Shown here piece after piece: positions 4,316 to 51,677 of a DNA stretch of 64,000 bases. Position numbers and translations under genes: made by a program. The notes below the pieces were generated by a model. That model was not told where the DNA came from. It saw only the letters and a program-made list of their open reading frames with translations, and ran no database searches. Numbering within the stretch: the first letter of the stretch is position 1; every line of letters begins with the position of its first letter. The DNA comes from a virus (lineage: Duplodnaviria; Caudoviricetes), in IMG/VR virus record IMGVR_UViG_3300037067_007633, positions 1-64,000 of that record, one strand, 5' to 3'.

Positions 4316-4327
4316 AATTAAAATACC

Positions 4328-6545: not shown

Positions 6546-6551
6546 TTTTAT

Positions 6552-31881: not shown

Positions 31882-32049
31882 ATGATGGAACAACAATACG
31901 CTATTATTTCAACTAAGTATTTAATAAGAGATGTAGAGAAATGTCCTAAGTGCGGGACTTATAATGTAGTTGGGGAAAAATGTGATAACTGCGTTAAAAA
32001 ATTAGAATATAAAGTGGGAATTAAACTACCCCTTATTCCTTCCTATTAA
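31882..32049 (+). CDS. small Zn-ribbon protein (55 aa, not in track)
   Basis: hand translation ...EKCPKCGTYNVVGEKCDNC... Confidence 0.55.
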   Translation: MMEQQYAIISTKYLIRDVEKCPKCGTYNVVGEKCDNCVKKLEYKVGIKLPLIPSY

Positions 32050-32178
32050 TTTCTTTGCAATATAAACCCCACATCACCTTAATTGAGGGTGCGAAGCACC
32101 CGAAACCCCACATACCCCAGTCGTGGTAGCAAGAAAAAGAAAACCACCCTTTCGGGCGGTTCTCTTTCAGTTGTTGTT

Positions 32179-32685
32179 TTACTTCTTTTCTCTTCCGTGA
32201 TACGCTTCATACCAAAATACTTTACTCTCTAAGTTAGCTAACTTAGAAATAATAGGATGATTTAATGCATCATAAAACAAATCGCATTCATTTCTAAGTC
32301 CTAGAGTATATAAACACAATAATACTCGTGTTACTCTTAGATAATTGTGGTTAAACTTTCCAAATATTTCATAAACTCTTTTATAGTTCACTATTAGAAT
32401 TTCATTCCCGTCATATTGTAATCCACAAAACCACAACCATTTATAAAATGATCGTCTAATTTGATTTTTCAAATATTCATTGTTGTAAAAATCCCCAATA
32501 TCTTCGTCAGTTAATAGTGGGGCGTTAGGATTAAAGCTAGAGGGGGACTTTAAGGGAAACATCCATTGAATATGGTTATGACACCCCTCCATTTCTTCTT
32601 CGGTAAAACTCAAATAATCTTCTAAAGTTTTACCTTCAATATTTTTACCACCTGTAAGGAAATTAATAATGGGACTTAGAGACAT
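32179..32685 (-). CDS. OGFr (opioid growth factor receptor) N-terminal-like domain protein
   Basis: E..HNHIQWMFP...S.FNP.AP; HNYLRVTRVL. Confidence 0.8.
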   Translation of the reverse strand: MSLSPIINFLTGGKNIEGKTLEDYLSFTEEEMEGCHNHIQWMFPLKSPSSFNPNAPLLTDEDIGDFYNNEYLKNQIRRSFYKWLWFCGLQYDGNEILIVNYKRVYEIFGKFNHNYLRVTRVLLCLYTLGLRNECDLFYDALNHPIISKLANLESKVFWYEAYHGREKK

Positions 32686-32803
32686 TATATTTCCCTCCTA
32701 TCAATTAATAGCAGTCTTAATTGTCATTATTATACCTCAAACAAACTTAAAAACAACTGGTAAATTAACAAATTCCCCATAGTGTTTTATAGTTATATAA
32801 AAG

Positions 32804-32886
32804 TGCCGAAAGAGGGATTCGAACCCTCACTGCCTTACGGCAATCAGATTTTGAGTCTGACGTGTATTCCATTCCACCATTTCGGC
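32804..32886 (-). tRNA. tRNA-Leu(CAA)
   Basis: GCCGAAA/TTTCGGC acceptor; TCAGA-CTCAAAA-TCTGA; long variable arm; GGTTCGAATCC. Confidence 0.93.
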
Positions 32887-33070
32887 TTTATAGTGTTGGT
32901 TTTTCAGGAACGGTAAAAGTTTGTTCTTTACAACACCTTGGGCACTTCCAAGTATATATTCCGGGTTCTAAGACTATATGACTTGGGGGATTATGTTCTG
33001 GATGAGTACAATGTTTGGGCTTATCCCATCCAAATTTCTTTACATTAATAAATGGCATAATGTTATTCTC

Positions 33071-33535
33071 CTAAGCAAAATCCGCAAATATTCCAAGATC
33101 GTCTTTCGCACTATCTAACGCCCGCTGAGCGTTTTTACATACTTCAATCTTATTCTTAATATCCTCAAGATTATAACTTGTTGCTTTGAATTGCTCATAT
33201 ACTTCCGTTAATATACCGCCATCTAATTTTCCAATATTTAGCGTTAATTCATAATACAAACAAGTACAAGAATTTCCAATCATTTCACTAACTTTAACTA
33301 TAAAAAATACACTATAGTTAGAGTCATGATAATATACATTTATTTCTGGTGAATGGGGGAAATCTGGAAGTAGACTTTTTACCTTGATAGTAAGTCCCCC
33401 AACCTTCTTTACTTTCTTCCCTATTAATTCCTTAAAAATAGGAATAAGGGTATTAGACAATTGTTCGGCATAAGCATTAGCACGATTGACGGCACGAATT
33501 TTAGCTTTTAGGTGTTCTTCGTTATAGTAGGACAT
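33071..33535 (-). CDS. hypothetical protein
   Basis: ORF track. Confidence 0.7.
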   Translation of the reverse strand: MSYYNEEHLKAKIRAVNRANAYAEQLSNTLIPIFKELIGKKVKKVGGLTIKVKSLLPDFPHSPEINVYYHDSNYSVFFIVKVSEMIGNSCTCLYYELTLNIGKLDGGILTEVYEQFKATSYNLEDIKNKIEVCKNAQRALDSAKDDLGIFADFA

Positions 33536-33762
33536 TATTGTTTCTTTCTAATACAACTAACAAATAAACAGAATACTGCAATCAACCAGTATTTTATAGG
33601 TTGTGGTCCCTTAAATATTTCTGCTAGTGTTACATGTGATGCTAACCAACACCCCATAATGAAGACAAAATCTTTTATATAAAATACAAATTTCATATTA
33701 ATTTCCTATATTAACACCAAAAACTAGACGTTCAATTTTACAAAGTTAGTTTCATTGCTAAG

Positions 33763-33837
33763 TAGGAGTGTAAGGAATCGAACCTTATTCAATCGTCCAC
33801 CTTATAAGAGTAACCATGATCCAACCATCCCACTCCC
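33763..33837 (-). tRNA. atypical tRNA-Ile(UAU)
   Basis: GGGAGTG/CACTCCT acceptor; TAAGG-TTCGATT-CCTTA T arm; loop CTTATAA; weak G-U-rich anticodon stem and non-canonical D arm. Confidence 0.6.
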
Positions 33838-33968
33838 GTGTGTGTAGGTTCCCCCCTACACTAGGTATCCCCACTAACGTGGCGACTTTGATATTTTCTC
33901 ATACAAATATACTAGGACTCCACCTATTAATATGAGATATAGAATAATTCCGGTTTCTCCCATTAGGG

Positions 33969-35198
33969 TTAGGCGGCTTGCCCAACCAAACTTTCGATAG
34001 CTTTGACAGAAATATGTCTTGCCCTATTAAGCATTGCGTCCCATTGGCTTGTGGTCAAGTTTACAATGCTACCTGCTACTTCGTCCAGTCTAACCCATTC
34101 GTCGTCATCTTGAGTTTGACCAAACCTTGTAATGGCAGCTTGCAGACCAAACGCGGAAAATACTTCCTTACCAATTACATTTTGTTCATCAACAAACGAC
34201 CGCATTACTCCTTGAATTTGTTTTGAAGAAATACTATAATCTTGTGCAGTTTGGGCAAACAAGTTAAGAATGGGGGTGTCCCCTACCCCATAAGCCTTAA
34301 TTCCTAGCATACGTTGAATACCGATATCAAGAAGGGGAATTTGCTTTTCGAGATTATGCTTAATCTTTCCAAACAAATCTTCAAGATCAATATTACCCAT
34401 ATGTTTTTGTCTAATAGCAATTCCGCTCTCTTGGTCCCAAATACAGCCATTCATACAGATTGCACGAAACACACTAGGCTGCGAACTAATACGGCGAGTG
34501 CCGATTTCGGAATTACCGATAGACAACATTCCACCATAATCAGAATCCTTTTCTTCCCTAATAGTGTCGGGAATAAGGATATTGCCATAGATAGAGTCAG
34601 CGTCCCCCCTCCAATGGGATAGCATTCCACCTGGGATAAGCTTTTGGAGTGACTCTAATACCCAAGAGTTATTAACAATTGCATACTTAGAGGACAACAT
34701 TGCCCTCATAGTTCCATCTGTCCATGTACGAAAGAGACGGGGTTTTTCTTGGTCCACCCTATCGGGGGCAAACAAGGTGTTTTTCAATACTTGCACCACC
34801 ACCTCTGCATCCCTCCTATCTCGACTATATTCCATAGTCTTCTTAATAGGATGAAGTTTGGGTTCCCGCATTTGCTTGAGAAAAGTAGTAGAAACCCCCG
34901 CACAAGTGGCAATGTGCTGAAGAGTATGGTCGGTCGGAATATATTCTTCCCTATTAATCTTGTGCCGCAGAATAAAGCGGTCTTTACTGTCAATAGCTGG
35001 TTCCCACTCTCCGAGTGGGCTATCAGAATAATCCCTAATTTTCTGTTGATCATTAGCGATTTTCTCCATTCCCTTATCAAAAGGAATACACTTATCATAC
35101 CAGATCTTAGAGACATTACCAAACCCCTTAGAGGTAGCCAGCGGTTGGCTATTCAACACGGCATTCCCGGAAGTCCCCTTACCTTGAATTGCGGACAT
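33969..35198 (-). CDS. DUF932-like protein
   Basis: RAMLSSKYAIVNN, IGNSEIG, FRAICMNG, IRQKH.G. Confidence 0.7.
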   Translation of the reverse strand: MSAIQGKGTSGNAVLNSQPLATSKGFGNVSKIWYDKCIPFDKGMEKIANDQQKIRDYSDSPLGEWEPAIDSKDRFILRHKINREEYIPTDHTLQHIATCAGVSTTFLKQMREPKLHPIKKTMEYSRDRRDAEVVVQVLKNTLFAPDRVDQEKPRLFRTWTDGTMRAMLSSKYAIVNNSWVLESLQKLIPGGMLSHWRGDADSIYGNILIPDTIREEKDSDYGGMLSIGNSEIGTRRISSQPSVFRAICMNGCIWDQESGIAIRQKHMGNIDLEDLFGKIKHNLEKQIPLLDIGIQRMLGIKAYGVGDTPILNLFAQTAQDYSISSKQIQGVMRSFVDEQNVIGKEVFSAFGLQAAITRFGQTQDDDEWVRLDEVAGSIVNLTTSQWDAMLNRARHISVKAIESLVGQAA

Positions 35199-35453
35199 TT
35201 TAGTGGTCTCCTTGTTTTTTCTGGTTTGGTTGCTCTCGATAAATATATTCTACCCTATATCTAGGAAATGTCAATTTCGCTTCGCGAAAATTTTTTCTAC
35301 CACCTTTGAGGATACACAGTATCCGAAACCCCACACCCCACACCCCTATTCCTTCCTATTTATTTTTTGGCGACAGCCAAACCCCACACCACCTAAAAGT
35401 TGATAAAAGGCTGGAATGGGGGACTCGAACCCCCATCCCCCTACTTGCCTATT

Positions 35454-36896
35454 TCATCCTATTAATTTTGCAGCAAAGTTAAACGCCCAATCTTGCAAAT
35501 CTCTAGACTGGTCTGTTGCCCCAGTAATATAATGGGAATATTCCTCAATAATAACCGTTCTTAGTTGTGGAGTATTAGCATCCCCTAACAGTGTATTTAG
35601 ATAAATTCCTCCATCACGATAAAACCCATAACAAGTAGAGTCAGCCGACATGATAGAAGAAAACCTAAAGGCGTCTGGCATAGGCTTTCCCGTATCCATT
35701 CCTACTTCTACAATCTTTGCCCAAATATCAATTGCTAATTCTTGCAATTCTAAACTTGCTGGGTATACCTCCCTTCCAAGTCTTTCATCTTGAGACAATA
35801 TCTTATCACTAGTTGTTACTTCGTAAGATTGGGCGGTTTCAAAAAACCCCTCAGGAACAATCAACGGAGTATATCCTTTGCGTCTGATAGTATCACTTTC
35901 AGAATTACAACTAATTACCCTATTTACTCCCAAAGTTTGCAACGCAAACTGCCAATTTTTAGACCTAGTTTCCTTTTCTTCTTTGTTTCCAATGTATTGG
36001 GCGGACATATAATATTTATCGAAAGAGTGTTCCCAATATTGAACTTCACTATCAAAGCTTCTTAATAGGATAGATAAATGTTTTGTGTCGGAACTAGCTA
36101 ACACTCGTGCAGACTCAGACTTTGCATTATACTCGTTGAGGTTGCGACTTTCGTCTACCTTAATGTCAAAGTTATAGTCGAAGAGGCTAGATAGATTAGT
36201 GTGTTCTAATTCCCCTACTCTTACGCCTCTTCGATAGAAGACTGGACCGGTTTTATCTCCCATATTTCTATGTTGCTTACGCAAAATGTTAGAAGGGATA
36301 TTTTCTGGTTCAGAGAAATGCATAAACCACTTACCAAGATCGACAAAGAAGCTACGTACAGCCGGTACACTAGCCGGAATAAATACTCTGGTGGTCCCCG
36401 TCTTTGCCCTTACTTGATTTTCGTTTACTAATTCAATAGTAACCCCCTCCCATGGATAGTCTACACTATTACCGTGGTGGTGGTTATACATAATAGTGTG
36501 GTCAATAGCATTGCTAACAAACTCACGGAGAGCCATTTCAACGTATGCCCAGTCGAGTTGACCATAGCCGATTGACCATAGTTTTTCTGTATAGTTGCGA
36601 GTTTTCCCCTCTTCGTCTTTCCCCGAATACCTAACTTGAACCCTATCATATTCGGTATTAGTAATATCACTAGTGAGGTTGTCTGTCACCGGTTGGAATT
36701 CTAACCTGAGATTACTACAAAAAACAATGGGAGTCACGTTGTTACGCATACACACGGAGATACTGTGTTTGTTTCCCGACCCAAATTGCCCAATAATATA
36801 AGGGAGGTTGCAATTTGTCTTTGAGGTTGCCCCTAATACTGTGAACCCCTCCACTGGGGCTATACCCGGATTTTCAATCTTCAAATACTGTAGCAT
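35454..36896 (-). CDS. GHKL-type ATPase with rearranged motifs and a degenerate zincin-like C-terminus
   Basis: IENPG, IGQFGSG, ALREFVSNAID, GTTRV; IIEEYSHYITG. Confidence 0.65.
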   Translation of the reverse strand: MLQYLKIENPGIAPVEGFTVLGATSKTNCNLPYIIGQFGSGNKHSISVCMRNNVTPIVFCSNLRLEFQPVTDNLTSDITNTEYDRVQVRYSGKDEEGKTRNYTEKLWSIGYGQLDWAYVEMALREFVSNAIDHTIMYNHHHGNSVDYPWEGVTIELVNENQVRAKTGTTRVFIPASVPAVRSFFVDLGKWFMHFSEPENIPSNILRKQHRNMGDKTGPVFYRRGVRVGELEHTNLSSLFDYNFDIKVDESRNLNEYNAKSESARVLASSDTKHLSILLRSFDSEVQYWEHSFDKYYMSAQYIGNKEEKETRSKNWQFALQTLGVNRVISCNSESDTIRRKGYTPLIVPEGFFETAQSYEVTTSDKILSQDERLGREVYPASLELQELAIDIWAKIVEVGMDTGKPMPDAFRFSSIMSADSTCYGFYRDGGIYLNTLLGDANTPQLRTVIIEEYSHYITGATDQSRDLQDWAFNFAAKLIG

Positions 36897-37348
36897 TTCT
36901 TCGTCCTTATTAATGGGGTTGTTTCACTAAGATTGATTATCGTCTATTTTTGCAAAATGTCAACACGAATTTTTTTTCGCAAAGCGAAACCCCACATACC
37001 TCTGACGAGGTAGTAAATAAGGAGAAAGGGGGAAAATCCCCCTTTTATTTTACCCAATCTTGTTATTTTTCCTTTCCCTTCTCTTCATAGCCCTATCAGT
37101 CCTTTTCTGAGAGGCTCCGCTTTTCCCATTTCCTCTTCCAGAACGCTTCCTGGAATAAACATTTCCACCCTCAATAAAAGCACAACCATCATAACTGTTT
37201 CGCCCGTAAGCTTTCATTTTATACCATGTCGTGATTAATGGAAAATTCCCTATTAATTTGGCGTAAGCCAACCCAACATACCACTAATAAGGTAAGAAGA
37301 AAAGGAAAGAGCCCCACTTTAAGGGGCTCCATAGTTCCTTGGTTACTA

Positions 37349-37675
37349 TCAGACTGTAACCTCGTTCTGCAAAGCAGGGATATCGTTCTGCGTAGCAGAC
37401 TCTTCCTGTTGCTTCCTCAAATCCATAATCAGCTTAGTCAACTCACTGACGTTGACCTTCGGGGTACGCTTGGATGCCTTCATATCCTTGAGGGGAATTC
37501 CCTCACGGAGTACATTACCGTGATCGTCGATACGCTGATTGCGGTAATTGTTGGCACGTCCAATGACGGCGTTGTACGTCATTCCCGTCTTTTCCATCAC
37601 CTCCTTAACGCTACTGGAAGTTTCCCAAATCGTCACAAACTCTACTTGACCGATACTCGACTTTCCTCGCGGCAT
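37349..37675 (-). CDS. HTH-like DNA-binding protein
   Basis: SSVKEVMEKTGMTYNAVIGRANNYR; AGGAG RBS before ATG 37675. Confidence 0.65.
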   Translation of the reverse strand: MPRGKSSIGQVEFVTIWETSSSVKEVMEKTGMTYNAVIGRANNYRNQRIDDHGNVLREGIPLKDMKASKRTPKVNVSELTKLIMDLRKQQEESATQNDIPALQNEVTV

Positions 37676-38582
37676 AATAAATCTCCTTTTCTCAAAAAAC
37701 CAGTTTAGTAACTCGCTCCGATAACACCATTTTACCTTATTCTTTTTAGAAGTCAAGGGGTTGGGAATTTTTTTTCTTCCGTTGTCCCTTTTCCCCTCCA
37801 ACAAATGTAATTATCGGCTATTTTACTCAGAACACAACAACCAAATTGGAATTTTAGAAAGATATTTTTTGGCGTAAGCCAACCCCACATTCCCCATAGA
37901 TGGGGAATCAATAGGAAAACAAAAAACCCGGTCAAGCGTTGTCAATGCTTACCGGGGGCTTATATTTTTGACGGTTTGCCAATTCCGTCATACAGTCGTT
38001 ACATTATTACGAATAGAAAGGGCTATCTAACGACTTCCCTATTCTATAGGACTAAATTAAGAATTTCCCCTTTTTTTATGCCCCACTAATTTAATCGCCA
38101 ATTTCAGTTTTCTGATTGCTAAGTCTAATTCTTTCTTTTGATAATGTCTTATCGCCTCGTGAATAGTGGCAATTACGTTGAGGTCTGTTTGTGTCATTAT
38201 TTTGGGTAACCTAGTCTATCAGATGAGTTTGTGAGAAACACTTACTTTTAATAAAGAATATACGCAAAACCTTTTGTCATACTTACGTAATAGTCACTAC
38301 CTACCCATTTGATTGTGTCAGTTTCTCCATCTTTGCTTTTAATTTCTGGATGACAATCTGTCAAACAAACTGGGAAAAATTCTTTTCCATCAGATTTTCT
38401 TATGTATTTTATTGAGGTCATAGTTTATTCTCCTACAAGTATTATCGTCTATTTCTGCGAAATGTCAACACGAATTTTTTTTGCGAAGCAAAACCCCACA
38501 TACCTCTAAAGAAGTATTAATAAGAGAAAAGGGGGAAGAATAACAACCCCCTCTTCGATATAATGGGATTATGTTATAGATA

Positions 38583-38831
38583 TTATTCTGTTCTTATTTC
38601 TACTATATCTCCATAACCAGAATAATCTAGCTGGCACCCATTATAATCATGCGGAATACATCCACTATAATTACCAAGCCATTTTTCCAAGTAGGCTAGG
38701 GCTTGCTCAAAAGTTTCAAATTGGTGGGTTTTCCAACAAGCCAAACTTAAATATGGAAAACCAATTACAGAACACGGCTTATTGTTGTCGTAAACTCCAA
38801 ACACATTTTCCCCCTTTATGAATTTACCCAA
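38583..38831 (-). CDS. hypothetical early protein
   Basis: AAGGAG RBS; inside a cassette. Confidence 0.6.
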   Translation of the reverse strand: MGKFIKGENVFGVYDNNKPCSVIGFPYLSLACWKTHQFETFEQALAYLEKWLGNYSGCIPHDYNGCQLDYSGYGDIVEIRTE

Positions 38832-39276
38832 CTCCTTTTCGCCATCCTTCTTTCTTTACGTTGATTACGTTTTCCCTTTACCTTATTTTTTTTCTGCTTA
38901 CACTCACGGTAATACTCAGACCCGCTACTATATGTACCTCGGCACATTTCTTTTACTTCTTTCTTTTTTGTTTTGCAAAATTTGTTGTCGCCTCACAGTA
39001 TTTATTCTACTCTATTTCTATCAGAAGTCAACCCGAATCTTGCATAGAACCGCAAAGCTCTCCAATACGCATACCATTTACGCTTCGCGTAAACAGAAGA
39101 GAACCGCCGCTTACGTTTTCCGTCCGGCATGATTAGGTCTCCTTTTCCTCTTTATTTATTATGGGATATTTTTGCCAAATGTCAAGTCTATTTTTTGGCA
39201 TTAGCCAAACCCCACATACCCCTAGCGTGGTAAATAAGGAGAAAGGGGGACTTCTCCCCCTCCCTAGTCGTTTTTC

Positions 39277-39558
39277 TTAAATCTTTTTTGGTAATCTTAG
39301 TATTCGACCATCACCAATATAATCGCTATACTCTTCCTCATTTTCATAATTTCCTAACTTAACAATCATTTCTTGCATAGGGCAAGGACACAATTGTTTA
39401 TCCCCAGTTATAGCATTATCAATATACCCATACCAATATGCTTTTGATCGCTCTACGTCAAACCTAGTCAATTCCGTTTTGACAATATCTAAAGCCTCAT
39501 TGTTGAGGCACTCGATTGCATCGCGGATTTCTTCCAGACGTTCTTTCGGGCTTTTCAT
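39277..39558 (-). CDS. hypothetical early protein
   Basis: GGAGG RBS. Confidence 0.65.
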   Translation of the reverse strand: MKSPKERLEEIRDAIECLNNEALDIVKTELTRFDVERSKAYWYGYIDNAITGDKQLCPCPMQEMIVKLGNYENEEEYSDYIGDGRILRLPKKI

Positions 39559-39590
39559 TGGACTACCTCCAAAATTCTTCCTTTTGCGTC

Positions 39591-39788
39591 CTAAATACCC
39601 TCACTGTCATAATCCCCTAACTTACACTCAGACGATACAAAACTTATACTATCCCTGTCATCATATTCTATCCTAATATCCTCTTTCGCTTGTTGTCTCT
39701 CTTCATCATTAGGAAAAATTCCAACCAGTCTTTTACTTGTAACTGGCTTGTTAGCGTCATAAACGAATAGTAGAAATAGCTCTTGCAT
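39591..39788 (-). CDS. hypothetical early protein
   Basis: ORF track. Confidence 0.6.
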   Translation of the reverse strand: MQELFLLFVYDANKPVTSKRLVGIFPNDEERQQAKEDIRIEYDDRDSISFVSSECKLGDYDSEGI

Positions 39789-40098
39789 TTCTTTTCCCCT
39801 TTATATTTGTTCTTGTTATAACAAAAACTTGGGACAGGTTTTTGACTGGCACCGTTTTTAATTATTACGGTTAACCCTGCATTCCATCCCTTAGTGTTTG
39901 CAGCCCGAATAACTCCCAGAGGTTTTTGTTACACATGCATTATCGTCTATTCTCACCAAAAATCAATATGGAAAACCCCTTATTTATTTGCCATAGGCAA
40001 ACCCCACATACTCCTAAAGAAGTATATAAGGAAAAAATCCCGCCAATAGAGGGTAGCGAGTGAAACCCCCTCTATCAGCGGGTGACGATGGTTTTTTG

Positions 40099-40404
40099 CT
40101 ATACTACTTGTGCGGAGAATTCGTAAAGTTTGTTTTTTAGTTCGTTTGCAAAGCAGGAAAGTCTTTCGTTCTCATCCTCAATGATATCGACAATTTGCCA
40201 AGCAATACTTTCGGGAATCTTGAAGGTGATATCGTGCATTCCCCACGCCCATTCTGTATCGCCTCCCCGTTGTCCTTCAAATTCCCAAGTGCAAAGCACT
40301 AGTAGGTTATATAAATCATTACCGTGTCGATAACGATTTCCAATCCAGTTGATCGCTTTTTGTTCGGTAATGGTAAGGGTAAGGGTATACATTTTCATGA
40401 CCAA
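40099..40404 (-). CDS. hypothetical early protein
   Basis: ORF track. Confidence 0.65.
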   Translation of the reverse strand: MVMKMYTLTLTITEQKAINWIGNRYRHGNDLYNLLVLCTWEFEGQRGGDTEWAWGMHDITFKIPESIAWQIVDIIEDENERLSCFANELKNKLYEFSAQVV

Positions 40405-40625
40405 ACTGTAATGTCGTAATCGACATCCTTTTCAGAAGACATAGAGTAAAATCGCAATACGTACCCATAAGCAGTACATAAACCACATAGTCGGCGATAT
40501 CTTTCTTCCCCCAAATAATCCCTTTCGGATTCTTCAAACTCGCATTTTTCCACAAGAGTTATCATTGTGAGAGGTGGTTGTTTGCATTTAGGATCATACT
40601 TTTGGATGCGGCAGGTTTTTCTCAT
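40395..40625 (-). CDS. hypothetical early protein
   Basis: ORF track; follows the promoter at 40667. Confidence 0.6.
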   Translation of the reverse strand: MRKTCRIQKYDPKCKQPPLTMITLVEKCEFEESERDYLGEERYRRLCGLCTAYGYVLRFYSMSSEKDVDYDITVWS

Positions 40626-40776
40626 GATTTTATCTCTTTGTTTTGTGGTTTGTTGTCACTAACAGTATTATCGGATATTTTTTCAAATAGTCAACAACAA
40701 TTTTTCGACGTTAGTCGAACCCCACTTACCTCTAGCGGGGTAAATAATGAGAAAAGGGGGATTTCTCCCCTAATCT

Positions 40777-41001
40777 CTATTCCCAATAAATTCCCCCTAA
40801 AGCCCCTCTAACCTTAACCAAACCGCAATCTCTCATAATACTATCCCTAGATTGTCGGTTAGCATTCTGACGGTCAAGGCGGATACGTTTTTTTTGGCAG
40901 ACCTTACAAGGGGTTTCCTCATATCGGCATTTATCACAACGGATTTCTTTGCGGTTAGCCATCATTTTCCCATTTAAGTTAGGTATCCCACCATTTCCCA
41001 T
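40777..41001 (-). CDS. small Zn-binding early protein (true start probably internal)
   Basis: CDKC..CKVC; GLVKVRGALGGIYWE. Confidence 0.6.
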   Translation of the reverse strand: MGNGGIPNLNGKMMANRKEIRCDKCRYEETPCKVCQKKRIRLDRQNANRQSRDSIMRDCGLVKVRGALGGIYWE

Positions 41002-41255
41002 CTTCCACTGCCCATTCTATACCATGTATAGTATAGACGGGTATTTAACTCTACTCCAAAACGCTCTAATCGCTGAATAGACCTACCCTCATCATTGTAG
41101 CAACACACTGGCTCAACGGCAAAGGTAATGTCTACTTCTAGGAGGATACTCTGCACGCGACTGAGATAGTCTTGCGGGCTATTGTAATACCCCCCACTTG
41201 ACAATCTGGCGATTTCTTCCCTCATACAATCCCTAGATCCCACTTGATTCGTCAT
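40974..41255 (-). CDS. hypothetical early protein
   Basis: WYRMGSGRWEMVGYL C-terminus. Confidence 0.65.
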   Translation of the reverse strand: MTNQVGSRDCMREEIARLSSGGYYNSPQDYLSRVQSILLEVDITFAVEPVCCYNDEGRSIQRLERFGVELNTRLYYTWYRMGSGRWEMVGYLT

Positions 41256-41515
41256 TATGTTTCCCCTTGTGTTCGATTCACTAACTATATTGTCGGCTAT
41301 ATTTCGTAGAAGTCAATATGTTTTCCTTCCTATTTATTTCGCAAAGCGAAACCCCACATACCTCTAACGAGGTATGAAATATGGAATTAGAGTATCCCCC
41401 AGTTAGGTATGTCAGGAAAAAATAATTAAAGAGACGTTATAGCGTCTATATTGTCGCCCTAATGACAGTTACAAGCGTTTTTTGAAAATTTCCATTGAAT
41501 CATAGGGGTTTTACC

Positions 41516-42055
41516 CTACTCTGGAATGTATCCAACCTTAATGGGAGCCCCCATAACCTGGGGACCAACCGGACTACCCAAAGTAGCCCTTAGCTCATCC
41601 CCCATTTTCCCTACTACTTCAATGGCTTGGAGGATTTCATCCCGTTCTTTCGGGTTAGCTAACCTAATCCACCCCTCAGAGAAGGTAATCTTTCCCGCCC
41701 GAACGAAAGCCCCCACAAAAGCGGTATCAACCTTTTTGGGGGTGATTTTGTCGTAGACCCTCTTCTTACGGGTTTTGCGACCCCCTACCCTTATCCCCGC
41801 TAGGGCATATAACCTTTTCAGGGCATCTTTATCCCCTTCTAGCGAAGCTAACACCTGTTCTTGTCTACTGTGTAGACAATTCTTAACCCCAATTCCCCTA
41901 CCATTTTCGGGGGAATGGTCGTTGTGGCTTGACAGCCTAATTTGAGGTTGTACCCCATAAACCCCCTCCAAAGAAGAGAGTTTGGACGAATCCCCGTTAT
42001 CAACCTTTGGGGACGGGGTGTCAGTATACGGGTTGTCGATGCGGCAAATAGGCAT
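41516..42055 (-). CDS. hypothetical early protein
   Basis: ORF track; AAGGGA RBS. Confidence 0.55.
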   Translation of the reverse strand: MPICRIDNPYTDTPSPKVDNGDSSKLSSLEGVYGVQPQIRLSSHNDHSPENGRGIGVKNCLHSRQEQVLASLEGDKDALKRLYALAGIRVGGRKTRKKRVYDKITPKKVDTAFVGAFVRAGKITFSEGWIRLANPKERDEILQAIEVVGKMGDELRATLGSPVGPQVMGAPIKVGYIPE

Positions 42056-42088
42056 TGTTTTTCCCTTAGGTTGGCGTAGCCAAGCTAA

Positions 42089-42409
42089 TTAGATTGTACT
42101 TGCAAGGTATTCGTATACTTCTTTAGTGACCTTGGTAACCGATCCCCACCCCTCGATTTCATACAGGGCAACCTTTTGATCTGGTCCCCCAAACGGACCA
42201 ACACCGTTAGATCCCACGTATCCAGTCGTCTTGCGAATTACACTTGGTAGTATGATCTGACCAGACTTGTCGAGTGCCGTAAAAACAGCACTATAGACGC
42301 CAGACCTAATCAAACGTTTTGTAGCACGATACAGCTTACCGGAAATAGTAACGGTGTGAGACATTTTGTTTTCCCTAGTCAAAAGTGTATTGTAACCTAT
42401 TTTTTGCAA
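42089..42409 (-). CDS. hypothetical early protein (likely start MSHTV)
   Basis: ORF track; promoter at 42389. Confidence 0.6.
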   Translation of the reverse strand: MQKIGYNTLLTRENKMSHTVTISGKLYRATKRLIRSGVYSAVFTALDKSGQIILPSVIRKTTGYVGSNGVGPFGGPDQKVALYEIEGWGSVTKVTKEVYEYLASTI

Positions 42410-42437
42410 AGAGCAACCACAAATTGGCGTTAGCCAA

Positions 42438-42842
42438 CTACTTTGTCCGACCCCCCAACCTTCCGGTTTTCACACAGAATTCAGCGGGGGCTCTGCTAGA
42501 TCGCGGTCCCCTTCCTAGTGAGGGGTTCGACTTGACCAGACCCTCAAACAGGGTGTCATCCACTAGTTCTCCGTTAGAGAACGGGGAAGGGATAGACTCG
42601 TCCTCATCCTCTAGGTTGTGGTTAATTGCTACCCTCTCGTAGTACGCTTTGAGGCGGTCAATCCGCCCCTCTTCCTTGGGGACACAAGCATACTTGTGAC
42701 CCCTATTAGGGCACCCGGTGGTGTGCCCTACCGATCCCTCAATAGTATCCTCTTGTCCGGGTTTCCCCCCACCCTCTTCAGGGGTTAGGTAGACGACACG
42801 GACGACCTCGAAACAGTCTGACGGCAAGTGTAAGTCTAACAC
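42438..42842 (-). CDS. hypothetical early protein
   Basis: AAGGAG RBS. Confidence 0.55.
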   Translation of the reverse strand: MLDLHLPSDCFEVVRVVYLTPEEGGGKPGQEDTIEGSVGHTTGCPNRGHKYACVPKEEGRIDRLKAYYERVAINHNLEDEDESIPSPFSNGELVDDTLFEGLVKSNPSLGRGPRSSRAPAEFCVKTGRLGGRTK

Positions 42843-42898
42843 TGGAGACTCCTTGTTGTGTTACAGGAAGAGAACAGTATACGGTATGCGGGACATAC

Positions 42899-43183
42899 TC
42901 AAACGTCATATCCACCATATTGGTGGACTACGATGTAATTGCGGGTACGGCGGACAATCACGGGTTTGCGATAGTGGAGTGTGCCAACAGTACCAGACAA
43001 CGAGGTTAGCTGATAGAGTGTAAACATCTGCCGTAAGCAATGCACTCGTTTGATCCAACTCTTACGGGGAAATAGTACTCTTCTCATGAAGCTTGAACCC
43101 AATTCCTTGTCTAACTCTACCACATCTTCCCTAACACCCGTAAACGAAACGTGTTTCTGAATACCTTTCATATCACACCCCAT
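42899..43183 (-). CDS. hypothetical early protein
   Basis: ORF track. Confidence 0.55.
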   Translation of the reverse strand: MGCDMKGIQKHVSFTGVREDVVELDKELGSSFMRRVLFPRKSWIKRVHCLRQMFTLYQLTSLSGTVGTLHYRKPVIVRRTRNYIVVHQYGGYDV

Positions 43184-43569
43184 AAGGTAAGAGAAGGATA
43201 GTTTTTCCCGATGTCCGAATCTTAGGAAAATGAAATAGTTGGGGCAACCCCCCGATTAGAAAATATATCAAAAGTGTCGGGAAAATGCGTGCCAACTATG
43301 ATTTTAGGTATGAGGTAGACAGTTAGTTTTTTGGATACTAAGTAGCCCCCATTAGTGGCAATCGGTATGTTTGGGGGATGAGGGGTTTGATGGGGTTAGT
43401 TATGGTAAGGGGGTTTTTCTAACCAAAAGTAAGTACCGCTATAGGTGCGGGAAATGGCGGGGGGATGAATTTATAGGATTGATATAACTAACTTTATAGA
43501 ACCCCCTTTGGTCATCCTTGTAGCTACAACTTTCTCTATTAGCTTACGTTGTGGTTGTTTGCTACTACA

Positions 43570-44034
43570 TTAGTTAAAGAATTCTTTTATATCTTCATAT
43601 AAATTTATCTTTGTATTATCTAATCCATTTTTATATGCTTTCAGAATTTTGTCTTCACAACTTTTATTTACGAAGTAAATAACATAATTAGTATAATTAA
43701 ATTGGGGGAATAATTGGGAAAAATAATTAAGTTGATTACCTATATTAACACTATTACTTAGATATATCCTATTCTTACAGCGTAGCTGTAACAAAAAAAT
43801 CCCACCAATTCCGTTCATTTGTTCTATTCTAACTTCCTTGATAGCCCCTATCTTCATCATTCCACATTTTCTAGCTAATCTTTTAATAGAGGATTCACTT
43901 AAATTAATTATTTTAGATAGTTGTTTAACAGACATATAGGGGAAATTTTCCCGAACCAGTTTTAAATCTTCCGGTTGAATTTGTCTTCTTTGTTTTCTAA
44001 CTTTACCATCTTTGCTTTGTTTGGGTCTTGACAT
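43570..44034 (-). CDS. HTH protein with a degenerate GIY-YIG-like segment
   Basis: SVKQLSKIINLSESSIKRLARKCG; GIFLLQ....RIYLSNSVNI. Confidence 0.55.
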   Translation of the reverse strand: MSRPKQSKDGKVRKQRRQIQPEDLKLVRENFPYMSVKQLSKIINLSESSIKRLARKCGMMKIGAIKEVRIEQMNGIGGIFLLQLRCKNRIYLSNSVNIGNQLNYFSQLFPQFNYTNYVIYFVNKSCEDKILKAYKNGLDNTKINLYEDIKEFFN

Positions 44035-44126
44035 AATAATTTCCCATTTCATTATATTGGCGATAGCCAACAAAAAAGGGCGGGACTTTTACATCCCACC
44101 CCCATCACCCTCTTTATTTTTTTTAA

Positions 44127-44426
44127 TTACTGGGGTTGTACGGCTGATTCTGGTGTCGGGACGGCAACAGCTTTAGCTGCTACTTTAGCGTCATGCTTAG
44201 CCTTAATAACTGCAACTTCTTCGGCGGTTAAAATTCGATTTGCACCGCGACCACGAGCCTTAACAATTCCTAATTGTGTGCGAATTGCACGTACACACTT
44301 AGCATTTACGGGATAACCCATCATAGTTGTTAATTCGGAAGCTATTACGTTATCACGCTTAGCTGCTGCATTTTCCATAACATAGTTAACTTCTTCTGGT
44401 TTGTATTCTTTCTTGACCTTTACCAT
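44127..44426 (-). CDS. small HTH-like DNA-binding protein
   Basis: AAGGAG RBS; DNVIASELT...VRAIRTQLGIVKARGR. Confidence 0.7.
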   Translation of the reverse strand: MVKVKKEYKPEEVNYVMENAAAKRDNVIASELTTMMGYPVNAKCVRAIRTQLGIVKARGRGANRILTAEEVAVIKAKHDAKVAAKAVAVPTPESAVQPQ

Positions 44427-44528: not shown

Positions 44529-45110
44529 ATGAATTTACCATCTGGAATAACTGAAAACGATTTTTTACAAGTAATGGGGGCAATAACAAATTCCGTTAAG
44601 GATTCATATTCTTTTGGATATTATGACAGTGCGGATATTTCCCAAGAATGCTATATTTTTGCTATAGAAGCCCTACCAAAATATAATTGTGAAAGAGGAT
44701 CTTTGTTTACATTTTTAAATACACATATAAAGAATCGCTTATTAAATTTACGGAGAAATAAATTAATAAGGGTCCAATTACCATGTTTAGACTGTCATAT
44801 ATGTGTAACCGAAGAAGAAAGAAATAAGTGTAAAAAATATCTTAAATGGAAGCGGAGAAATGAACTTAAAAAAAACCTAATGGAATCTTTTGAATTAACA
44901 GATACAAATATTGATAATAAAGATCAAGATAGTTTATCGTTATTGCTAAATACGGAATTAATGTGTATAATTGATAGGAATCTTCCTATTAATTTGCGGA
45001 GTGATTATAGAAGAATTTTAGAAGGTAGTAAAATTTCTAAAAAAAGAAAAATGGCGGTTGTGAATATAATTATAAATATTTTAAGGAATAATCAATATGG
45101 CGGTGAATAA
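44529..45110 (+). CDS. phage RNA polymerase sigma factor (sigma70 region 2-like)
   Basis: DISQECYIFAIEALPKYNCERGSLFTFLNTHIKNRLLNLRR. Confidence 0.8.
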   Translation: MNLPSGITENDFLQVMGAITNSVKDSYSFGYYDSADISQECYIFAIEALPKYNCERGSLFTFLNTHIKNRLLNLRRNKLIRVQLPCLDCHICVTEEERNKCKKYLKWKRRNELKKNLMESFELTDTNIDNKDQDSLSLLLNTELMCIIDRNLPINLRSDYRRILEGSKISKKRKMAVVNIIINILRNNQYGGE

Positions 45111-47907: not shown

Positions 47908-48370
47908 ATATTTAATCTTAAAGGATACTCGCGAGAAAGAGAAAAAGGGATGGATTTTTAAAACCGACAGATCTTGTGCGGGCACCGAAGTACAAAAATT
48001 AGATACTGGCGATTATACTATTGCTGGTTTTGAAAATATTTTATGTATTGAAAGAAAAGGAAGTGTTAGTGAGTTCGCACGTAATATAGTAGAAAAAAGA
48101 TTTGAAAAAGAATTAGACCGTATGGATGAATTTCCCTATTCATATATTCTTTTAGAATTTACCGAAGAAGACATTAATAATTTTCCAAAAGGATGTGGAA
48201 TTCCTCGTAGAGTTCAAAAATATGTTAGAATTAAACCAAAATTTATTTATTATAGAATAAAAGAAATAATGGAGCAACATAAAGTAAAAATTATCTTGTG
48301 TGGAGATAATGGAAAACAAATAGCACAAGAAATTTTTGATTTTGTATTAAACGATGTTAAATCTAGATAA
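47900..48370 (+). CDS. ERCC4-domain nuclease
   Basis: DTRE, LDTGDY, IERKGS..E. Confidence 0.85.
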   Translation: MGKYLILKDTREKEKKGWIFKTDRSCAGTEVQKLDTGDYTIAGFENILCIERKGSVSEFARNIVEKRFEKELDRMDEFPYSYILLEFTEEDINNFPKGCGIPRRVQKYVRIKPKFIYYRIKEIMEQHKVKIILCGDNGKQIAQEIFDFVLNDVKSR

Positions 48371-51300: not shown

Positions 51301-51677
51301 ATAAAATAACTAATAGAGATTCTGATACTTTAGAAGATTGTGTGTTAGAAATAGAAGAATTGAAAAACGAATTAACAACAATTGTTATCACCGAAACAAC
51401 AACCGGTAGAGATCATTGGGATACACCTGGAATTAAATTACCTGGAGGTAAAAAAGGACGTGTAAGAAAAGATAGATATTCTGCCTTATTAATAGCTAAT
51501 ATGATTGCTCGTCATATTGGTAATACTATCAATGTACCAGAATACAAAGTTGCTGGTGGATATATTGGTGATCCTAAATTAAAAAATTGTACTAGTAAGA
51601 CAATGTATGTTGGACCAGATAATTTAGTAAGCAAAATGACAGGAAGTTATGGGGCTGGAGTTTATAGGGGAAGATAA
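48354..51677 (+). CDS. terL: terminase large subunit with intein
   Basis: Walker A GSRGCSKS, RGMRANYIIADEF Walker B, IGIDPA nuclease, KDRYSA. Confidence 0.92.
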   Translation: MLNLDKYNFKFKKDIQQIVDEAYLGLGDTSLLKINNVLLNEAQYDYDDPVVEFLNIMRKPENFHATCRWLFGVDIVPFQNVILRLLWKYKFPMLLGSRGCSKSFMLGLYCLLRATLHQGCKIVICGASFRQSKFVFEYMEAIYKKYHVFQSIVGGSKFEGPKRDIDKWTFYIGNSEVIACPLGDGCVSPFTATTYDDRFSTIVDRSNLTQKIWSNGEFREISNFLDNGIKPTKIVKTKKGYYFEATYNHRMKICRDREIFWIRTDEMKIGDRILIDRSERWHNGNFDCTDDQAYALGSMIGDGCWTDKYKLGYAVHTDDSYHFIPYLNSIGEWKNSITDKQHWHLYGYKNIQKWIDFWKLQPQCYGINKQLPPNILTANKERMTACLQSLFDTDGTLQVGHAKGGTSICVSFTNTSKVLVEQIHYILLHYGIISTVSSRDRNEKWNRAYELFISGQDVIKFAKQIGFRLKRKQDILQDAVNQKILVSSMDDNIPDIKSEMIRIKSNFKALEYNYGLCISKIKSKKNITFDFAQKFLNQYSHIQDPFIEQLKTLINPNIYYDVITSIEDSESSTYDIEIPENHEYCANGFFSHNSTIRGMRANYIIADEFQSIPRDIFEVVVKGFGAVSESPSERVKHYSKIQSLKDLSKLEEYKDLNLMELADTVKEDSGFGNQTILSGTAYYTFNHLYQYWKKYKGIVTSAGDRRILEEIFQGEVPINFNWKDYCVIRIPYTKVPSGFLDEDQIAQAKATVDRSTFMMEYGAVFPNDSEGFFKRTLLEKATCKPPIMLPSGPVEFSSTLCGSPNKTYVIGIDPASEKDNFAIIVLEIQPDHRRIVYSWTVSRAKMREKLLKAGKSVQTGFYTYCANKIRELCKKFPTTHIGIDSQGGGIAVMEALRETEGLEKGELPILPYVKQGDDDPFWWEAPDKPTDGEPGLHHLHLVNFASAEFTGKANHGMRMDFENQVLIFPFFDSLTLGESYKDDKITNRDSDTLEDCVLEIEELKNELTTIVITETTTGRDHWDTPGIKLPGGKKGRVRKDRYSALLIANMIARHIGNTINVPEYKVAGGYIGDPKLKNCTSKTMYVGPDNLVSKMTGSYGAGVYRGR
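48909..50132 (+). mobile_element. intein (408 aa) with LAGLIDADG endonuclease in TerL
   Basis: begins CVSPFT, block B EATYNH, LGSMIGDG/LQSLFDTDG, ends FFSHN, +1 Ser. Confidence 0.92.

What the first reader, a model, noticed from the sequence alone, without database searches (positions are those of the whole stretch)
32087..44070. Cassette array punctuated by covarying DNA mini-hairpins and a CCCCACATACC box
Seen: about 11 near-complete and 3 hairpin-only modules separate cassettes of one to a few genes. On the + strand a typical module reads promoter(rev), T/CCTATT tract, mini-hairpin, CCCCACATACC, second hairpin (TACC..GGTA), then the terminator of the next cassette. Stems differ but always pair: GGGTGC-GAA-GCACCC, GGATAC-ACA-GTATCC, TTGGC-GACA-GCCAA, TTTCGC-AAA-GCGAAA, TTGGC-GTAA-GCCAA, TTTTGC-GAA-GCAAAA, TTTGGC-ATTA-GCCAAA, TTTGCC-ATA-GGCAAA, TTCGAC-GTTA-GTCGAA. 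The loop is always C-RN(N)A-G on the + (template) strand. Established: C-GNA-G and C-GNNA-G loops form exceptionally stable DNA hairpins and are used in N4 virion-RNAP promoters, and promoter/stem-loop repeats (PeSLs) drive modular shuffling in T4-like phages. Inference: a structure-selected ssDNA or cruciform signal for cassette shuffling, DNA ejection/second-strand priming, or early-promoter control. No recombinase is visible in this window.
Basis: partly seen in the sequence, partly recalled or inferred. Interest (0 to 1): 0.85.

Follow-up and report, generated by a model that had tools for sequence, protein, structure and literature searches.

The report
Phage promoter-terminator cassette joints with mini-hairpins
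A 12-kb run of small, mostly unknown early genes in a 160-kb uncultured phage is split into separately expressed cassettes by a repeated stop-signal/conserved-box/tiny-DNA-hairpin/promoter joint: a new variant of the known PeSL joints at which related phages gain, lose and reorder genes.

Summary
Between 32.05 and 44.1 kb lies the only GC-rich stretch of this 160-kb phage contig. There, 11 of 12 box sites are followed by a perfect 5-6-bp mini-hairpin, and three more hairpins stand alone. There are 12 different hairpin sequences. All close with C:G, and all have purine...A loops on the + (template) strand.

In the direction of transcription (minus strand) each joint reads: intrinsic terminator, second hairpin, G-rich box, mini-hairpin, A-tract, near-consensus sigma-70 promoter, ribosome site, gene. 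This is the architecture of the PeSL elements of T4-type phages.

I found the same joint family in four other assemblies. One is a true relative, and it differs from this phage by about 20 whole cassettes, one transposition and a mosaic joint. The breakpoints lie between terminator and box, and between promoter and start codon.

The box sits about 25+10n bp from the -35 element (best period 9.9 bp), which points to control on duplex DNA. The hairpin is missing from most joints of the relative, so it is an accessory.

I found no virion or T7-like RNA polymerase, integrase, resolvase or Y1 transposase.

Verdict: a new variant of a known kind. The role of the hairpin is unresolved. This scan has already noted many PeSL-like arrays on other DNA.

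The parts
32050..44103 (-). Whole early-gene cassette array. About 24 small genes and 2 tRNA genes, all on the minus strand. It is the only GC-rich (38-43%) stretch of the 160-kb contig.
44057..44103 (-). First joint: terminator of gene 44127-44426 (44076-44103) and a hairpin-only site (44057-70) that abuts a TATAAT-like hexamer in front of the low-GC HTH gene 43570-44073.
42389..42437 (-). Hairpin-only joint: mini-hairpin 42424-37, then a promoter-like -35/-10 pair 7 nt further on. There is no box and no terminator.
42071..42083 (.). Hairpin-only site in a 33-nt intercistronic gap, between stop codon 42089-91 and start codon 42055. It has no promoter or terminator, so it is transcribed.
41289..41376 (-). 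Joint m41352: second hairpin 41357-76, box 41352-62, mini-hairpin 41337-51, promoter 41316 to 41289. Box to -35 distance is 35 nt.
40667..40771 (-). Joint m40720: terminator 40755-71, second hairpin 40726-43, box 40720-30, mini-hairpin 40704-19, promoter 40694 to 40667. Box to -35 distance is 25 nt.
39939..40084 (-). Joint m40002: long terminator about 40039-84, second hairpin 40009-24, box 40002-12, mini-hairpin 39987-40001, promoter 39966 to 39939. Box to -35 distance is 35 nt.
39158..39265 (-). Joint m39210: terminator 39240-65, second hairpin 39217-32, box 39210-20, mini-hairpin 39194-209, promoter 39185 to 39158. Box to -35 distance is 24 nt.
39004..39093 (-). Box-less promoter 39031 to 39004, with a mini-hairpin of opposite loop polarity (39077-93) upstream of it, inside a 42-codon ORF.
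38441..38552 (-). Joint m38494: terminator about 38531-52, second hairpin 38501-16, box 38494-504, mini-hairpin 38479-93, promoter 38468 to 38441. Box to -35 distance is 25 nt.
37729..37957 (-). Joint m37883: terminator about 37927-57, second hairpin 37889-908 (an 8-bp variant that covaries with the box variant), box 37883-93, mini-hairpin 37869-82. There are two candidate promoters, at about 37838-37811 and at 37756 to 37729.
37216..37330 (-). Joint m37272: terminator 37308-30, second hairpin 37279-94, box 37272-82 (1 mismatch), mini-hairpin 37258-71, promoter 37244 to 37216. The cassette between this joint and m36990 is absent from the relative L082.
36936..37045 (-). Joint m36990: bidirectional terminator 37025-45, second hairpin 36997-37012, box 36990-37000, mini-hairpin 36975-89, promoter 36963 to 36936. 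Box to -35 distance is 26 nt. It drives the 480-aa GHKL-ATPase-like gene.
35247..35439 (-). Compound joint in front of the DUF932 gene: tRNA-3'-half-like terminator 35413-39; box 35382-93 with mini-hairpin 35366-81; double box 35329-46 with mini-hairpin 35310-24; opposite-polarity mini-hairpin 35275-89 abutting the -35 of promoter 35274 to 35247.
32067..32161 (-). Last joint m32106: terminator 32142-61, second hairpin 32113-28, box 32106-16, mini-hairpin 32087-101, and an extra box at 32067-77. No promoter follows; the array meets a converging + strand gene block here.
44529..45110 (+). Phage sigma factor gene (Sigma70_r2) at the head of the diverging late/structural operon. It holds the same position in distant relatives.

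Best explanation
The stretch is the hyperplastic early-gene region of a large lytic-type phage. Each joint is a composite regulatory unit of the PeSL kind.

How a joint works:
- An intrinsic terminator ends the upstream cassette.
- An A-tract (UP-like) and a near-consensus sigma-70 promoter, read by host RNA polymerase, start the next cassette. Every cassette is therefore an insulated, separately expressed unit.
- Because the joints are alike, homologous recombination between them, within one genome or between co-infecting relatives, adds, removes, swaps and moves whole cassettes without breaking expression.

Shown here: the anatomy of the joints, the cassette differences between relatives, and the position of the breakpoints. 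Inferred: the recombination pathway itself.

Two extra parts lie between terminator and promoter.

1. It is the most conserved part across genomes and lies about 25, 35, 45 or 54 bp from the -35 element, so always on one face of the helix. I infer that it acts on duplex DNA as an upstream promoter element. It could be the site of a still unidentified array-specific regulator, or a fixed bend, that controls the roughly 10 array promoters together.

2. The mini-hairpin. It fills a 14-16-bp spacer between box and A-tract. It is a DNA-level palindrome: always perfectly Watson-Crick, never wobble, with closing C:G and G/A...A loops on the template strand. Eight of the 14 match the extraordinarily stable GCGNAGC/GCGNNAGC class. 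I infer that it really forms on the + strand in vivo, for example as a supercoil-driven cruciform, and that it modulates the joint rather than defines it, because relatives keep the joint without it.
For: Anatomy:
- The terminator scan gives 29 sites against 12 expected, and the best promoter matches of the region (11 of 12 positions) lie directly downstream of the box and hairpin on the minus strand (layout).
- The same promoter core also occurs in native low-GC DNA at 22922 and 24807 without box or hairpin. These are therefore the phage's own early promoters.

PeSL definition: read in PMC4122927.

Cassette contents: nearly all are ORFans.

Shuffling:
- L082 is a true relative (DUF932 71% identical, the 480-aa protein 69%, flanking genes also shared) and carries the same joints.
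- About 12 cassettes are unique to this genome and about 9 to L082, and one cassette pair is in swapped order.
- In one mosaic joint, gene, terminator, box-plus-promoter and next gene each match different places of this array. The breaks lie at the second hairpin and at the start codon.
- The three segments of a joint have different nearest neighbours.
- In a more distant clade with 92% identical cores, all 12 array breakpoints fall at gene borders.

Box on duplex DNA: for 16 box to -35 distances in two genomes the best period is 9.9 bp, R = 0.80, Rayleigh p about 4e-6. Joints with and without hairpins fall in the same distance classes.

Hairpin:
- There are 12 distinct perfect stems, and the loop polarity is highly non-random.
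- GCGNAGC/GCGNNAGC occurs 11 times on the + strand of the island against 1.9 expected (maximum 7 in 500 shuffles), but 4 times against 2.9 expected on the minus strand.
- Orthologous hairpins show a compensatory stem change.
- Two half-sites of a dimeric protein would not need to stay identical at degenerate positions, and a dimer would not tolerate both 3-nt and 4-nt centres. Intra-strand pairing therefore explains the perfect symmetry better.
Against: - There is no transcript data, so start sites, termination efficiency and the timing of expression are all inferred.
- No binding protein is identified for the box.
- The phasing values are not independent, because some joints are orthologues or paralogues. 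The -35 calls in L082 were made by eye, and one joint (m37883) has two candidate promoters.
- The phage is not a T4-type phage: it has a tape measure protein and a Pol III alpha polymerase. The label PeSL is therefore by architecture and behaviour, not by descent.
- Perfect palindromes can also arise and be maintained by template-switch 'quasi-palindrome correction' (from my own knowledge of that literature) without any selected function.
- Three + strand mini-hairpins lie inside coding sequence (37387-99, about 41840-52, 43775-91), and one lies in an intercistronic gap. Promoter control alone does not explain these.
Confidence: 0.6

Rival explanations
1. The palindromes are mutational by-products with no function. 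A short T-run/A-run inverted repeat in the spacer nucleates intra-strand pairing during replication, and template switching then 'corrects' the centre to a perfect palindrome. Stable closing pairs and loops are simply the ones that pair often enough to be perfected. Only the box, terminator and promoter are functional.
For: - The stems are perfectly Watson-Crick with no wobble pair in about 78 base pairs.
- The inner stem and loop vary far more than the flanks.
- In the relative L082 only 3-4 of 12 joints have a perfect hairpin. The orthologue of m41352 carries an unpaired AT-rich 15-mer of the same length, and one joint has a one-mismatch quasi-palindrome.
- The phasing is the same with and without a hairpin.
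- An orthologous hairpin has a flipped loop, as inversion of a palindrome would give.
Against: - The strand polarity of the loops is strong: 14 of 14 here and 9 of 12 in relatives. The closing pair is always C:G.
- The stable motif class is enriched on one strand only.
- 11 of 12 box sites in this genome keep a hairpin at one fixed position.
Confidence: 0.2
2. The template-strand mini-hairpin is an initiation signal read in extruded or single-stranded DNA. It could be an N4-type hairpin promoter for a phage RNA polymerase, or an ssi-type priming site for the phage primase, with the adjacent box as the sequence-specific part.
For: - The loop and closing-pair rules match those reported for extrusion of N4 early-promoter hairpins: a C:G closing pair, 5' G and 3' A in the loop, on the template strand (PMC4496689).
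- They also match the mini-hairpins at the G4/St-1/alpha3 origins and at RSF1010 ssiA (PMC13037366).
- The hairpins are on the template strand of the downstream genes.
- The phage encodes a Toprim-type primase at 127037-128146.
- Extra + strand mini-hairpins lie inside genes.
Against: - No T7-like RNA polymerase was found (the control genomes did not ring either, so this result is weak).
- The largest ORFs are a tape measure protein, ribonucleotide reductase, a polymerase and two unknown tail-region proteins with no match to solved polymerases.
- The phage uses host-type promoters and has its own sigma factor.
- Five of the 14 loops start with A, and half are 4-nt loops.
- The hairpin is missing from most joints of the relative.
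- The motif class is not enriched in the arrays of other clades.
Confidence: 0.1
3. The element works as RNA. In one version it acts in sense read-through transcripts, as a processing, stabilising or anti-termination element. In the other it is a short + strand RNA that starts near the box and ends at the bidirectional terminator.
For: - In sense RNA the box can pair with the U-rich terminator tail through G.U pairs, and the sense strand folds better than the + strand in 10 of 11 joints.
- The second hairpin has some wobble pairs that work only on the sense strand, and several G...A loops on that strand.
- Several terminators are bidirectional, and one joint (m40720) has a + strand promoter-like site just upstream.
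- The hairpin at 42071 lies inside an operon transcript.
Against: - Box and mini-hairpin lie after a strong terminator and before the promoter, so little sense RNA should contain them.
- No + strand promoter is conserved across joints (and my reading of the sequences).
- No Rfam family matches.
- The mini-hairpins have no G.U pairs, and only 2 of the 7 tetraloops are GNRA on the + strand.
- Helical phasing with the -35 element is a property of duplex DNA.
Confidence: 0.08
4. The joints are sites of a dedicated site-specific or structure-specific recombinase, integron-attC-like or HUH-like, which excises and inserts cassettes as circles.
For: - The array is made of cassettes all in one orientation.
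- The hairpins are conserved in structure and variable in sequence, and sit next to a conserved core, as in attC sites.
- Cassette presence, absence and order differ between relatives.
Against: - No tyrosine recombinase, serine recombinase or Y1 transposase was found in the contig.
- Each cassette carries its own promoter and terminator, unlike integron cassettes.
- The hairpins are 14-16 nt long, not 57-141-nt imperfect attC folds.
- The mapped breakpoints are not in the mini-hairpin.
- The joints are mosaics, as expected from homologous exchange at varying points.
Confidence: 0.02

Closest known systems
PeSLs (promoter-early stem-loops) of T4-type phages RB49/phi1, PST/T4 and nt-1/KVP40 (Arbiol et al. 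2010, PMC2839356; Comeau et al. 2014, PMC4122927)
   Same: - A stem-loop/terminator lies just upstream of an AT-rich region and a sigma-70-like early promoter, followed by a ribosome site and a start codon.
- The units are repeated between small ORFan genes in a hyperplastic region.
- Relatives differ by insertions, deletions, replacements and displacements of genes next to these elements.
   Different: - The host phage is not T4-like.
- The joint carries two extra parts between terminator and promoter: a conserved, helically phased G-rich box, and a covarying template-strand DNA mini-hairpin.
- The array is compositionally distinct (about 42% GC against 28%).
- Mini-circle intermediates were not tested.
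Hairpin promoters of coliphage N4 virion RNA polymerase (Lenneman and Rothman-Denes 2015, PMC4496689)
   Same: - A short 5-7-bp stem with a closing C:G pair and a G-N-A type loop lies on the template strand.
- The non-conserved stem bases covary.
- This hairpin type extrudes at physiological superhelicity.
   Different: - No virion RNA polymerase was found.
- The hairpin lies about 46-60 nt upstream of a host-type promoter.
- Loops are 3 or 4 nt and often start with A.
- No block equivalent to the conserved -17 to +1 sequence is present.
- There are 14 copies spread along 12 kb, instead of 3 at a genome end.
Mini-hairpin DNA (GCGNAGC/GCGNNAGC) at the complementary-strand origins of G4, St-1 and alpha3, and at RSF1010 ssiA (review PMC13037366)
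   Same: - The motif class is the same; 8 of the 14 hairpins match it exactly on one strand.
- The known natural roles of this class are strand-specific starts of RNA synthesis on DNA that single-strand binding protein does not melt.
   Different: - Those elements work on single-stranded replicons or origins, one or two per genome.
- Here the hairpins sit in double-stranded phage DNA at promoter joints.
- There is no evidence that priming starts there.
Integron attC sites
   Same: - A one-orientation cassette array.
- Sites with conserved folding, variable sequence and strand polarity.
   Different: - There is no integrase.
- The cassettes have their own promoters and terminators.
- The fold is much shorter and perfect, without extrahelical bases.
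- The breakpoints are not in the hairpin.
Face-of-helix upstream promoter elements: class I activator sites, and upstream curved DNA of phage early promoters (from my own knowledge, not checked in a paper here)
   Same: - A fixed asymmetric element lies upstream of -35 at distances that differ by whole helical turns.
   Different: - No factor is known for the box.
- The box sequence matches no regulator site that I could name.

Membership tests
PeSL (promoter-early stem-loop) elements | A stem-loop/terminator directly upstream of a sigma-70-like early promoter with an AT-rich upstream region | tested here: met
   a terminator, then an A-tract, then -35/-10 hexamers matching 9-11 of 12 positions, in 9 joints.
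PeSL (promoter-early stem-loop) elements | A Shine-Dalgarno sequence and the start codon of the downstream gene at the 3' end of the element | tested here: met
   purine-rich ribosome sites and an ATG lie 25-60 nt after the -10 in the joints at 36990, 38494, 39210, 40720 and 41352.
PeSL (promoter-early stem-loop) elements | Clustered in a hyperplastic region of small genes that mostly have no known homologue | tested here: met
   20 of 24 products have no family match; relatives have variable arrays at the same locus.
PeSL (promoter-early stem-loop) elements | Insertions, deletions, replacements and displacements between close relatives, with breakpoints at the elements | tested here: met
   this genome against L051/L082; L034 against L036.
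PeSL (promoter-early stem-loop) elements | Host phage belongs to the T4-type myoviruses | tested here: not met
   RIIA is present, but so are a tape measure protein, a Pol III alpha polymerase and a terminase with only distant matches to isolates. The likeness is one of architecture, not of lineage.
PeSL (promoter-early stem-loop) elements | Circular excision products formed between tandem elements | not testable with these tools
   Needs PCR or long reads from phage-infected cells.
N4-type hairpin promoters | A template-strand hairpin with a 5-7-bp stem, a 3-nt loop, a C:G closing pair, and 5' G and 3' A in the loop | tested here: inconclusive
   the closing C:G and the 3' A hold in 14 of 14. 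However, the 5' base is G in only 9 of 14, and 7 of 14 loops have 4 nt.
N4-type hairpin promoters | A giant virion RNA polymerase (distantly T7-like) encoded by the phage | tested here: not met
   there is no ORF over 1,607 aa, no RNA_pol family match and no match to solved polymerases. Caveats: the contig is about 85% complete, the family search had no positive control, and two 1,255-1,460-aa proteins remain unassigned.
N4-type hairpin promoters | Transcription starts about 11 nt downstream of the loop centre | not testable with these tools
   There is no transcript data.
Integron cassette array (attC) | An IntI tyrosine recombinase next to the array | tested here: not met
   no Phage_integrase match in 160 kb; all 14 control genomes matched.
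Integron cassette array (attC) | Promoterless cassettes, each ending in a 57-141-nt imperfect inverted repeat with conserved core sites | tested here: not met
   every cassette has its own promoter and terminator, and the palindromes are 13-16 nt long and perfect.

The most novel reading that the evidence does not exclude
The mini-hairpin plus box is a supercoil-sensing DNA switch. The template-strand hairpin, built to the same rules as N4 promoter hairpins, extrudes when the freshly injected or actively transcribed DNA is negatively supercoiled. Extrusion removes about 1.5 helical turns between the box and the promoter, which flips the box to the opposite face of the helix. That would turn about 10 early promoters on or off together, or expose a hairpin that a phage protein reads. 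Candidates in the same array are the conserved GHKL-type ATPase, the small sigma-like protein and the HTH protein. If so, this would be the first use of N4-type extrudable hairpins to control host-polymerase promoters in a phage that has no virion polymerase.
Probability: 0.15. Interest if true: 0.8.

Novelty: new variant of a known kind. Interest (0 to 1): 0.45.

Why it matters
PeSL-type joints are the proposed means by which large phages trade small host-takeover and counter-defence genes, and this scan keeps finding such arrays.

This one adds three things. First, it gives a clean natural experiment: within one joint family, a true relative has gained, lost and moved cassettes, and its joints are mosaics. 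Second, it has a conserved upstream box on a fixed face of the helix, which implies a common regulator for the whole array. Third, it has a set of template-strand DNA mini-hairpins that follow the sequence rules of the most stable known DNA hairpins.

If those hairpins prove functional, they would extend a DNA-structure signal known from N4 promoters and single-strand origins to ordinary host-polymerase promoters. If they prove to be by-products, they are a good natural example of palindrome perfection by template switching.

Tried and rejected
- Exact-pattern scans for box plus second hairpin in IMG/VR and in JGI metagenomes gave only chance hits without hairpins.
- A scan of IMG/VR for the G-rich box variant of L053 gave 28 single, unrelated hits.
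- A DNA search of the array against phage isolates gave no match.
- Rfam at E up to 1 gave only the tRNAs.
- Protein-based locus searches with the 480-aa and 265-aa proteins in IMG/VR found no relatives. The larger protein collection did find relatives.
- The DUF932 relatives L012-L028 and the syntenic relatives L030-L037 have repeated promoter joints of other sequence families. They lack this box and show no one-strand enrichment of the mini-hairpin motif.
- Relatives cannot be drawn for a virus record, and the L082 record is not held, so the full 108-kb relative could not be searched.
- Considered and rejected:
  - A dimeric operator: the symmetry is perfect at degenerate positions, and both 3-nt and 4-nt centres occur.
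  - A mini-ORF starting in the box: the ribosome site abuts the ATG, and the frame is not conserved.
  - A heat-shock-sigma-type promoter on the + strand: the box resembles the -10 consensus that I recall for such promoters (from memory, not checked), but there is no -35 element at the right spacing.
  - NtcA-type and CRP-type sites: their consensus sequences as I recall them do not match.
  - Recent foreign insertion as the cause of the high GC: relatives have the same compositional island at the same locus, and the promoters are the phage's own type.
- I did not build a covariance model, because the loops misalign in MAFFT and the pattern scans had already shown that the family is rare.
The coordinates in 'parts' therefore come, and a few terminator limits are approximate.

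Full report
**What the DNA is.** The window is the first 64 kb of a 160,177-bp IMG/VR phage contig, rated about 85% complete. The contig is 27-31% GC throughout, except for 32-44 kb, which reaches 38-43%. The phage encodes RIIA, an RNA ligase, a large terminase, a tape measure protein, ribonucleotide reductase, a Pol III alpha polymerase, a Toprim primase and its own sigma factor. It has no close isolate. Genes run on the minus strand up to about 44.4 kb. The late/structural operon then diverges on the + strand, headed by the sigma factor gene.

**Checking the observation.** The 11-mer box (up to 1 mismatch) occurs nine times in 160 kb. All copies are on the + strand and all lie in 32.1-41.4 kb. 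With the variants there are 12 box sites. In all there are 14 perfect mini-hairpins. Eleven touch a box, and three stand alone at 42071, 42424 and 44057. They represent 12 distinct sequences. All have a C:G closing pair, a purine as first loop base and an A as last loop base on the + strand, although that strand is poor in A and G. All fold as predicted with DNA parameters. Two further mini-hairpins (35275-89 and 39077-93) have the opposite loop polarity and lie upstream of promoters that have no box. The second hairpin is conserved rather than covarying. One clear exception is m37883, where the box variant and the 5' arm change together.

**Anatomy in the direction of transcription.** Read on the minus strand, each full joint has these parts in order:
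- the stop codon of the upstream gene;
- a G/C-rich intrinsic terminator with a T-rich tail;
- the second hairpin;
- the G-rich box;
- the mini-hairpin;
- an A-tract;
- a -35/-10 pair that is among the best sigma-70 matches of the region;
- a ribosome site and a start codon.

The promoter core, including a conserved spacer, also occurs at 22922 and 24807 in native low-GC DNA, without box or hairpin. The array therefore uses the phage's own early promoter type. Box and hairpin are array-specific additions. The products are almost all ORFans. The exceptions are a DUF932 protein, an OGFr_N-like protein, a GHKL-ATPase-like 480-aa protein, a weakly sigma-like 109-aa protein and an HTH protein at the head of the array.

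**Comparison with relatives.** Distant relatives with conserved synteny from the sigma gene through terminase and portal have a GC-rich array of small minus-strand genes at the same place. Their joints are repeated too, but belong to other sequence families. Two of these relatives are 92% identical in the core, yet share only patches of the array, and all 12 breakpoints lie at gene borders.

Through the 480-aa and DUF932 proteins I found assemblies that carry the same joint family: L051/L082, L083 and L053. L082 is a true relative, because genes beyond the array also match the window. Shared cassettes are mostly collinear. However, about 12 cassettes are unique to this genome and about 9 to L082, and one pair is in swapped order. 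At nucleotide level, one L082 joint is a mosaic of a gene, the terminator of a different cassette (90% identical), the box-plus-promoter of m41352 and yet another gene. The breaks lie between terminator and box, and between promoter and start codon. The cassette at 37050-37271, flanked by joints m37272 and m36990, is absent from L082. Within this genome the three segments of a joint have different nearest neighbours. This is the behaviour described for PeSLs (PMC4122927).

**What the box is.** Across genomes the box is the constant part: L082 has 12 boxes after terminators. Its distance to the -35 element is 24, 25, 25, 26, 27, 35, 35, 45 and 54 nt here, and 23, 24, 25, 34, 37, 44 and 44 nt in L082. 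The best-fitting period between 5 and 20 bp is 9.9 bp (R = 0.80, Rayleigh p about 4e-6). These values are not fully independent, and some -35 calls were made by eye. Joints with and without a hairpin fall into the same distance classes, so the relevant geometry is ordinary duplex DNA. I conclude that the box is an upstream promoter element that acts from one face of the helix. It is either a regulator site or a fixed bend. No binding protein is identified.

**What the mini-hairpin is.** Perfect symmetry at otherwise free positions, centres of both 3 and 4 nt, and the absence of wobble pairs argue for intra-strand pairing at the DNA level. They argue against a dimer operator and against an RNA helix. 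Eight of the 14 hairpins match the GCGNAGC/GCGNNAGC class on the + strand, which has 11 copies against 1.9 expected; the minus strand shows no enrichment. That class is known for extreme stability, poor binding of single-strand binding protein, and roles at single-strand origins and in N4 promoters (PMC13037366). The closing-pair and loop rules are also those needed for extrusion of N4 promoter hairpins (PMC4496689).

The hairpin is nevertheless dispensable. Only 3-4 of the 12 L082 joints have a perfect one. The orthologue of m41352 carries an unpaired AT-rich 15-mer of the same length, and another joint has a one-mismatch palindrome. Orthologous hairpins before the DUF932 gene differ by one compensatory pair and by a flipped loop. 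In relatives the loop polarity holds in 9 of 12 hairpins. The hairpin is thus either an accessory structural element that really forms on the + strand, or the product of palindrome-perfecting template switches that favour stable hairpins. I cannot separate these two readings in silico.

**Other mechanisms examined.** There is no T7-like RNA polymerase, integrase, resolvase, Y1 transposase or endonuclease VII. The largest unassigned proteins, of 1,460 and 1,255 aa and lying next to the tape measure gene, have no family or solved-structure match. No Rfam family matches, and no + strand promoter is conserved. In sense RNA the box could pair with the terminator tail, but it lies beyond the terminator.

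**Verdict.** This is a new variant of the PeSL kind. It is of moderate interest because of the phased box and the template-strand mini-hairpins. The scan's notebook lists many PeSL-like arrays in other phages, one of them also with a helically phased box.

Noticed in passing
whole contig; in the window e.g. 32042-32050, 33420-33428, 34950-34958, 35458-35466, 37249-37257: The 9-mer ATTAATAGG, usually followed by G/A-A, occurs 45 times in 160 kb. It is found on both strands and in both coding and non-coding DNA. A shorter form sits just downstream of the mini-hairpin in the joints whose box to -35 spacing is 10 or 20 bp longer. Its function is unknown.
   Followed up: partly
window 43184-43569: A 386-bp stretch at the GC-rich edge of the array has no ORF. 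It holds box-like motifs in the opposite orientation (43364-43385) and four or five G-runs on the + strand that could form a quadruplex. No Rfam family matches it.
   Followed up: no
window 35413-35439, 32803-32886, 33762-33837: The terminator after the 480-aa gene looks like the T-arm and acceptor 3' half of a tRNA. Two intact tRNA genes, Leu(CAA) and Ile(UAU), lie inside the array, and the tRNA-Leu region is conserved in the relative L082.
   Followed up: partly
window 35454-36896 and 33969-35198: The 480-aa protein resembles GHKL-type ATPases (MPN635_N/HATPase_c_3 clusters). Together with the adjacent DUF932 protein and a small, weakly sigma-like protein (37349-37678), it forms a conserved core of such arrays. 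The two large proteins each have about 1,000 relatives, mostly viral.
   Followed up: partly
window 45898-47907 and 48354-51677: The 669-aa ORF matches the roughly 325-aa protein of relatives only at its two ends, and the 1,107-aa terminase also aligns in separate pieces. This suggests large insertions in both genes, perhaps inteins or homing elements.
   Followed up: no
L034/L036/L037 positions 1-7000; L012-L016: Other clades of these phages have their own repeated joints. These carry sequence-conserved inverted repeats (an 18-bp palindrome about 21 nt upstream of -35, and a 7-nt inverted repeat pair around a 15-nt loop) that look like operators.
   Followed up: partly
window 37387-37399, about 41840-41852, 43775-43791: Three more + strand mini-hairpins of the GCGNAGC class, with extended stems of 5, 4 and 7 bp, lie inside coding sequence. 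One of them is in the low-GC HTH gene.
   Followed up: no
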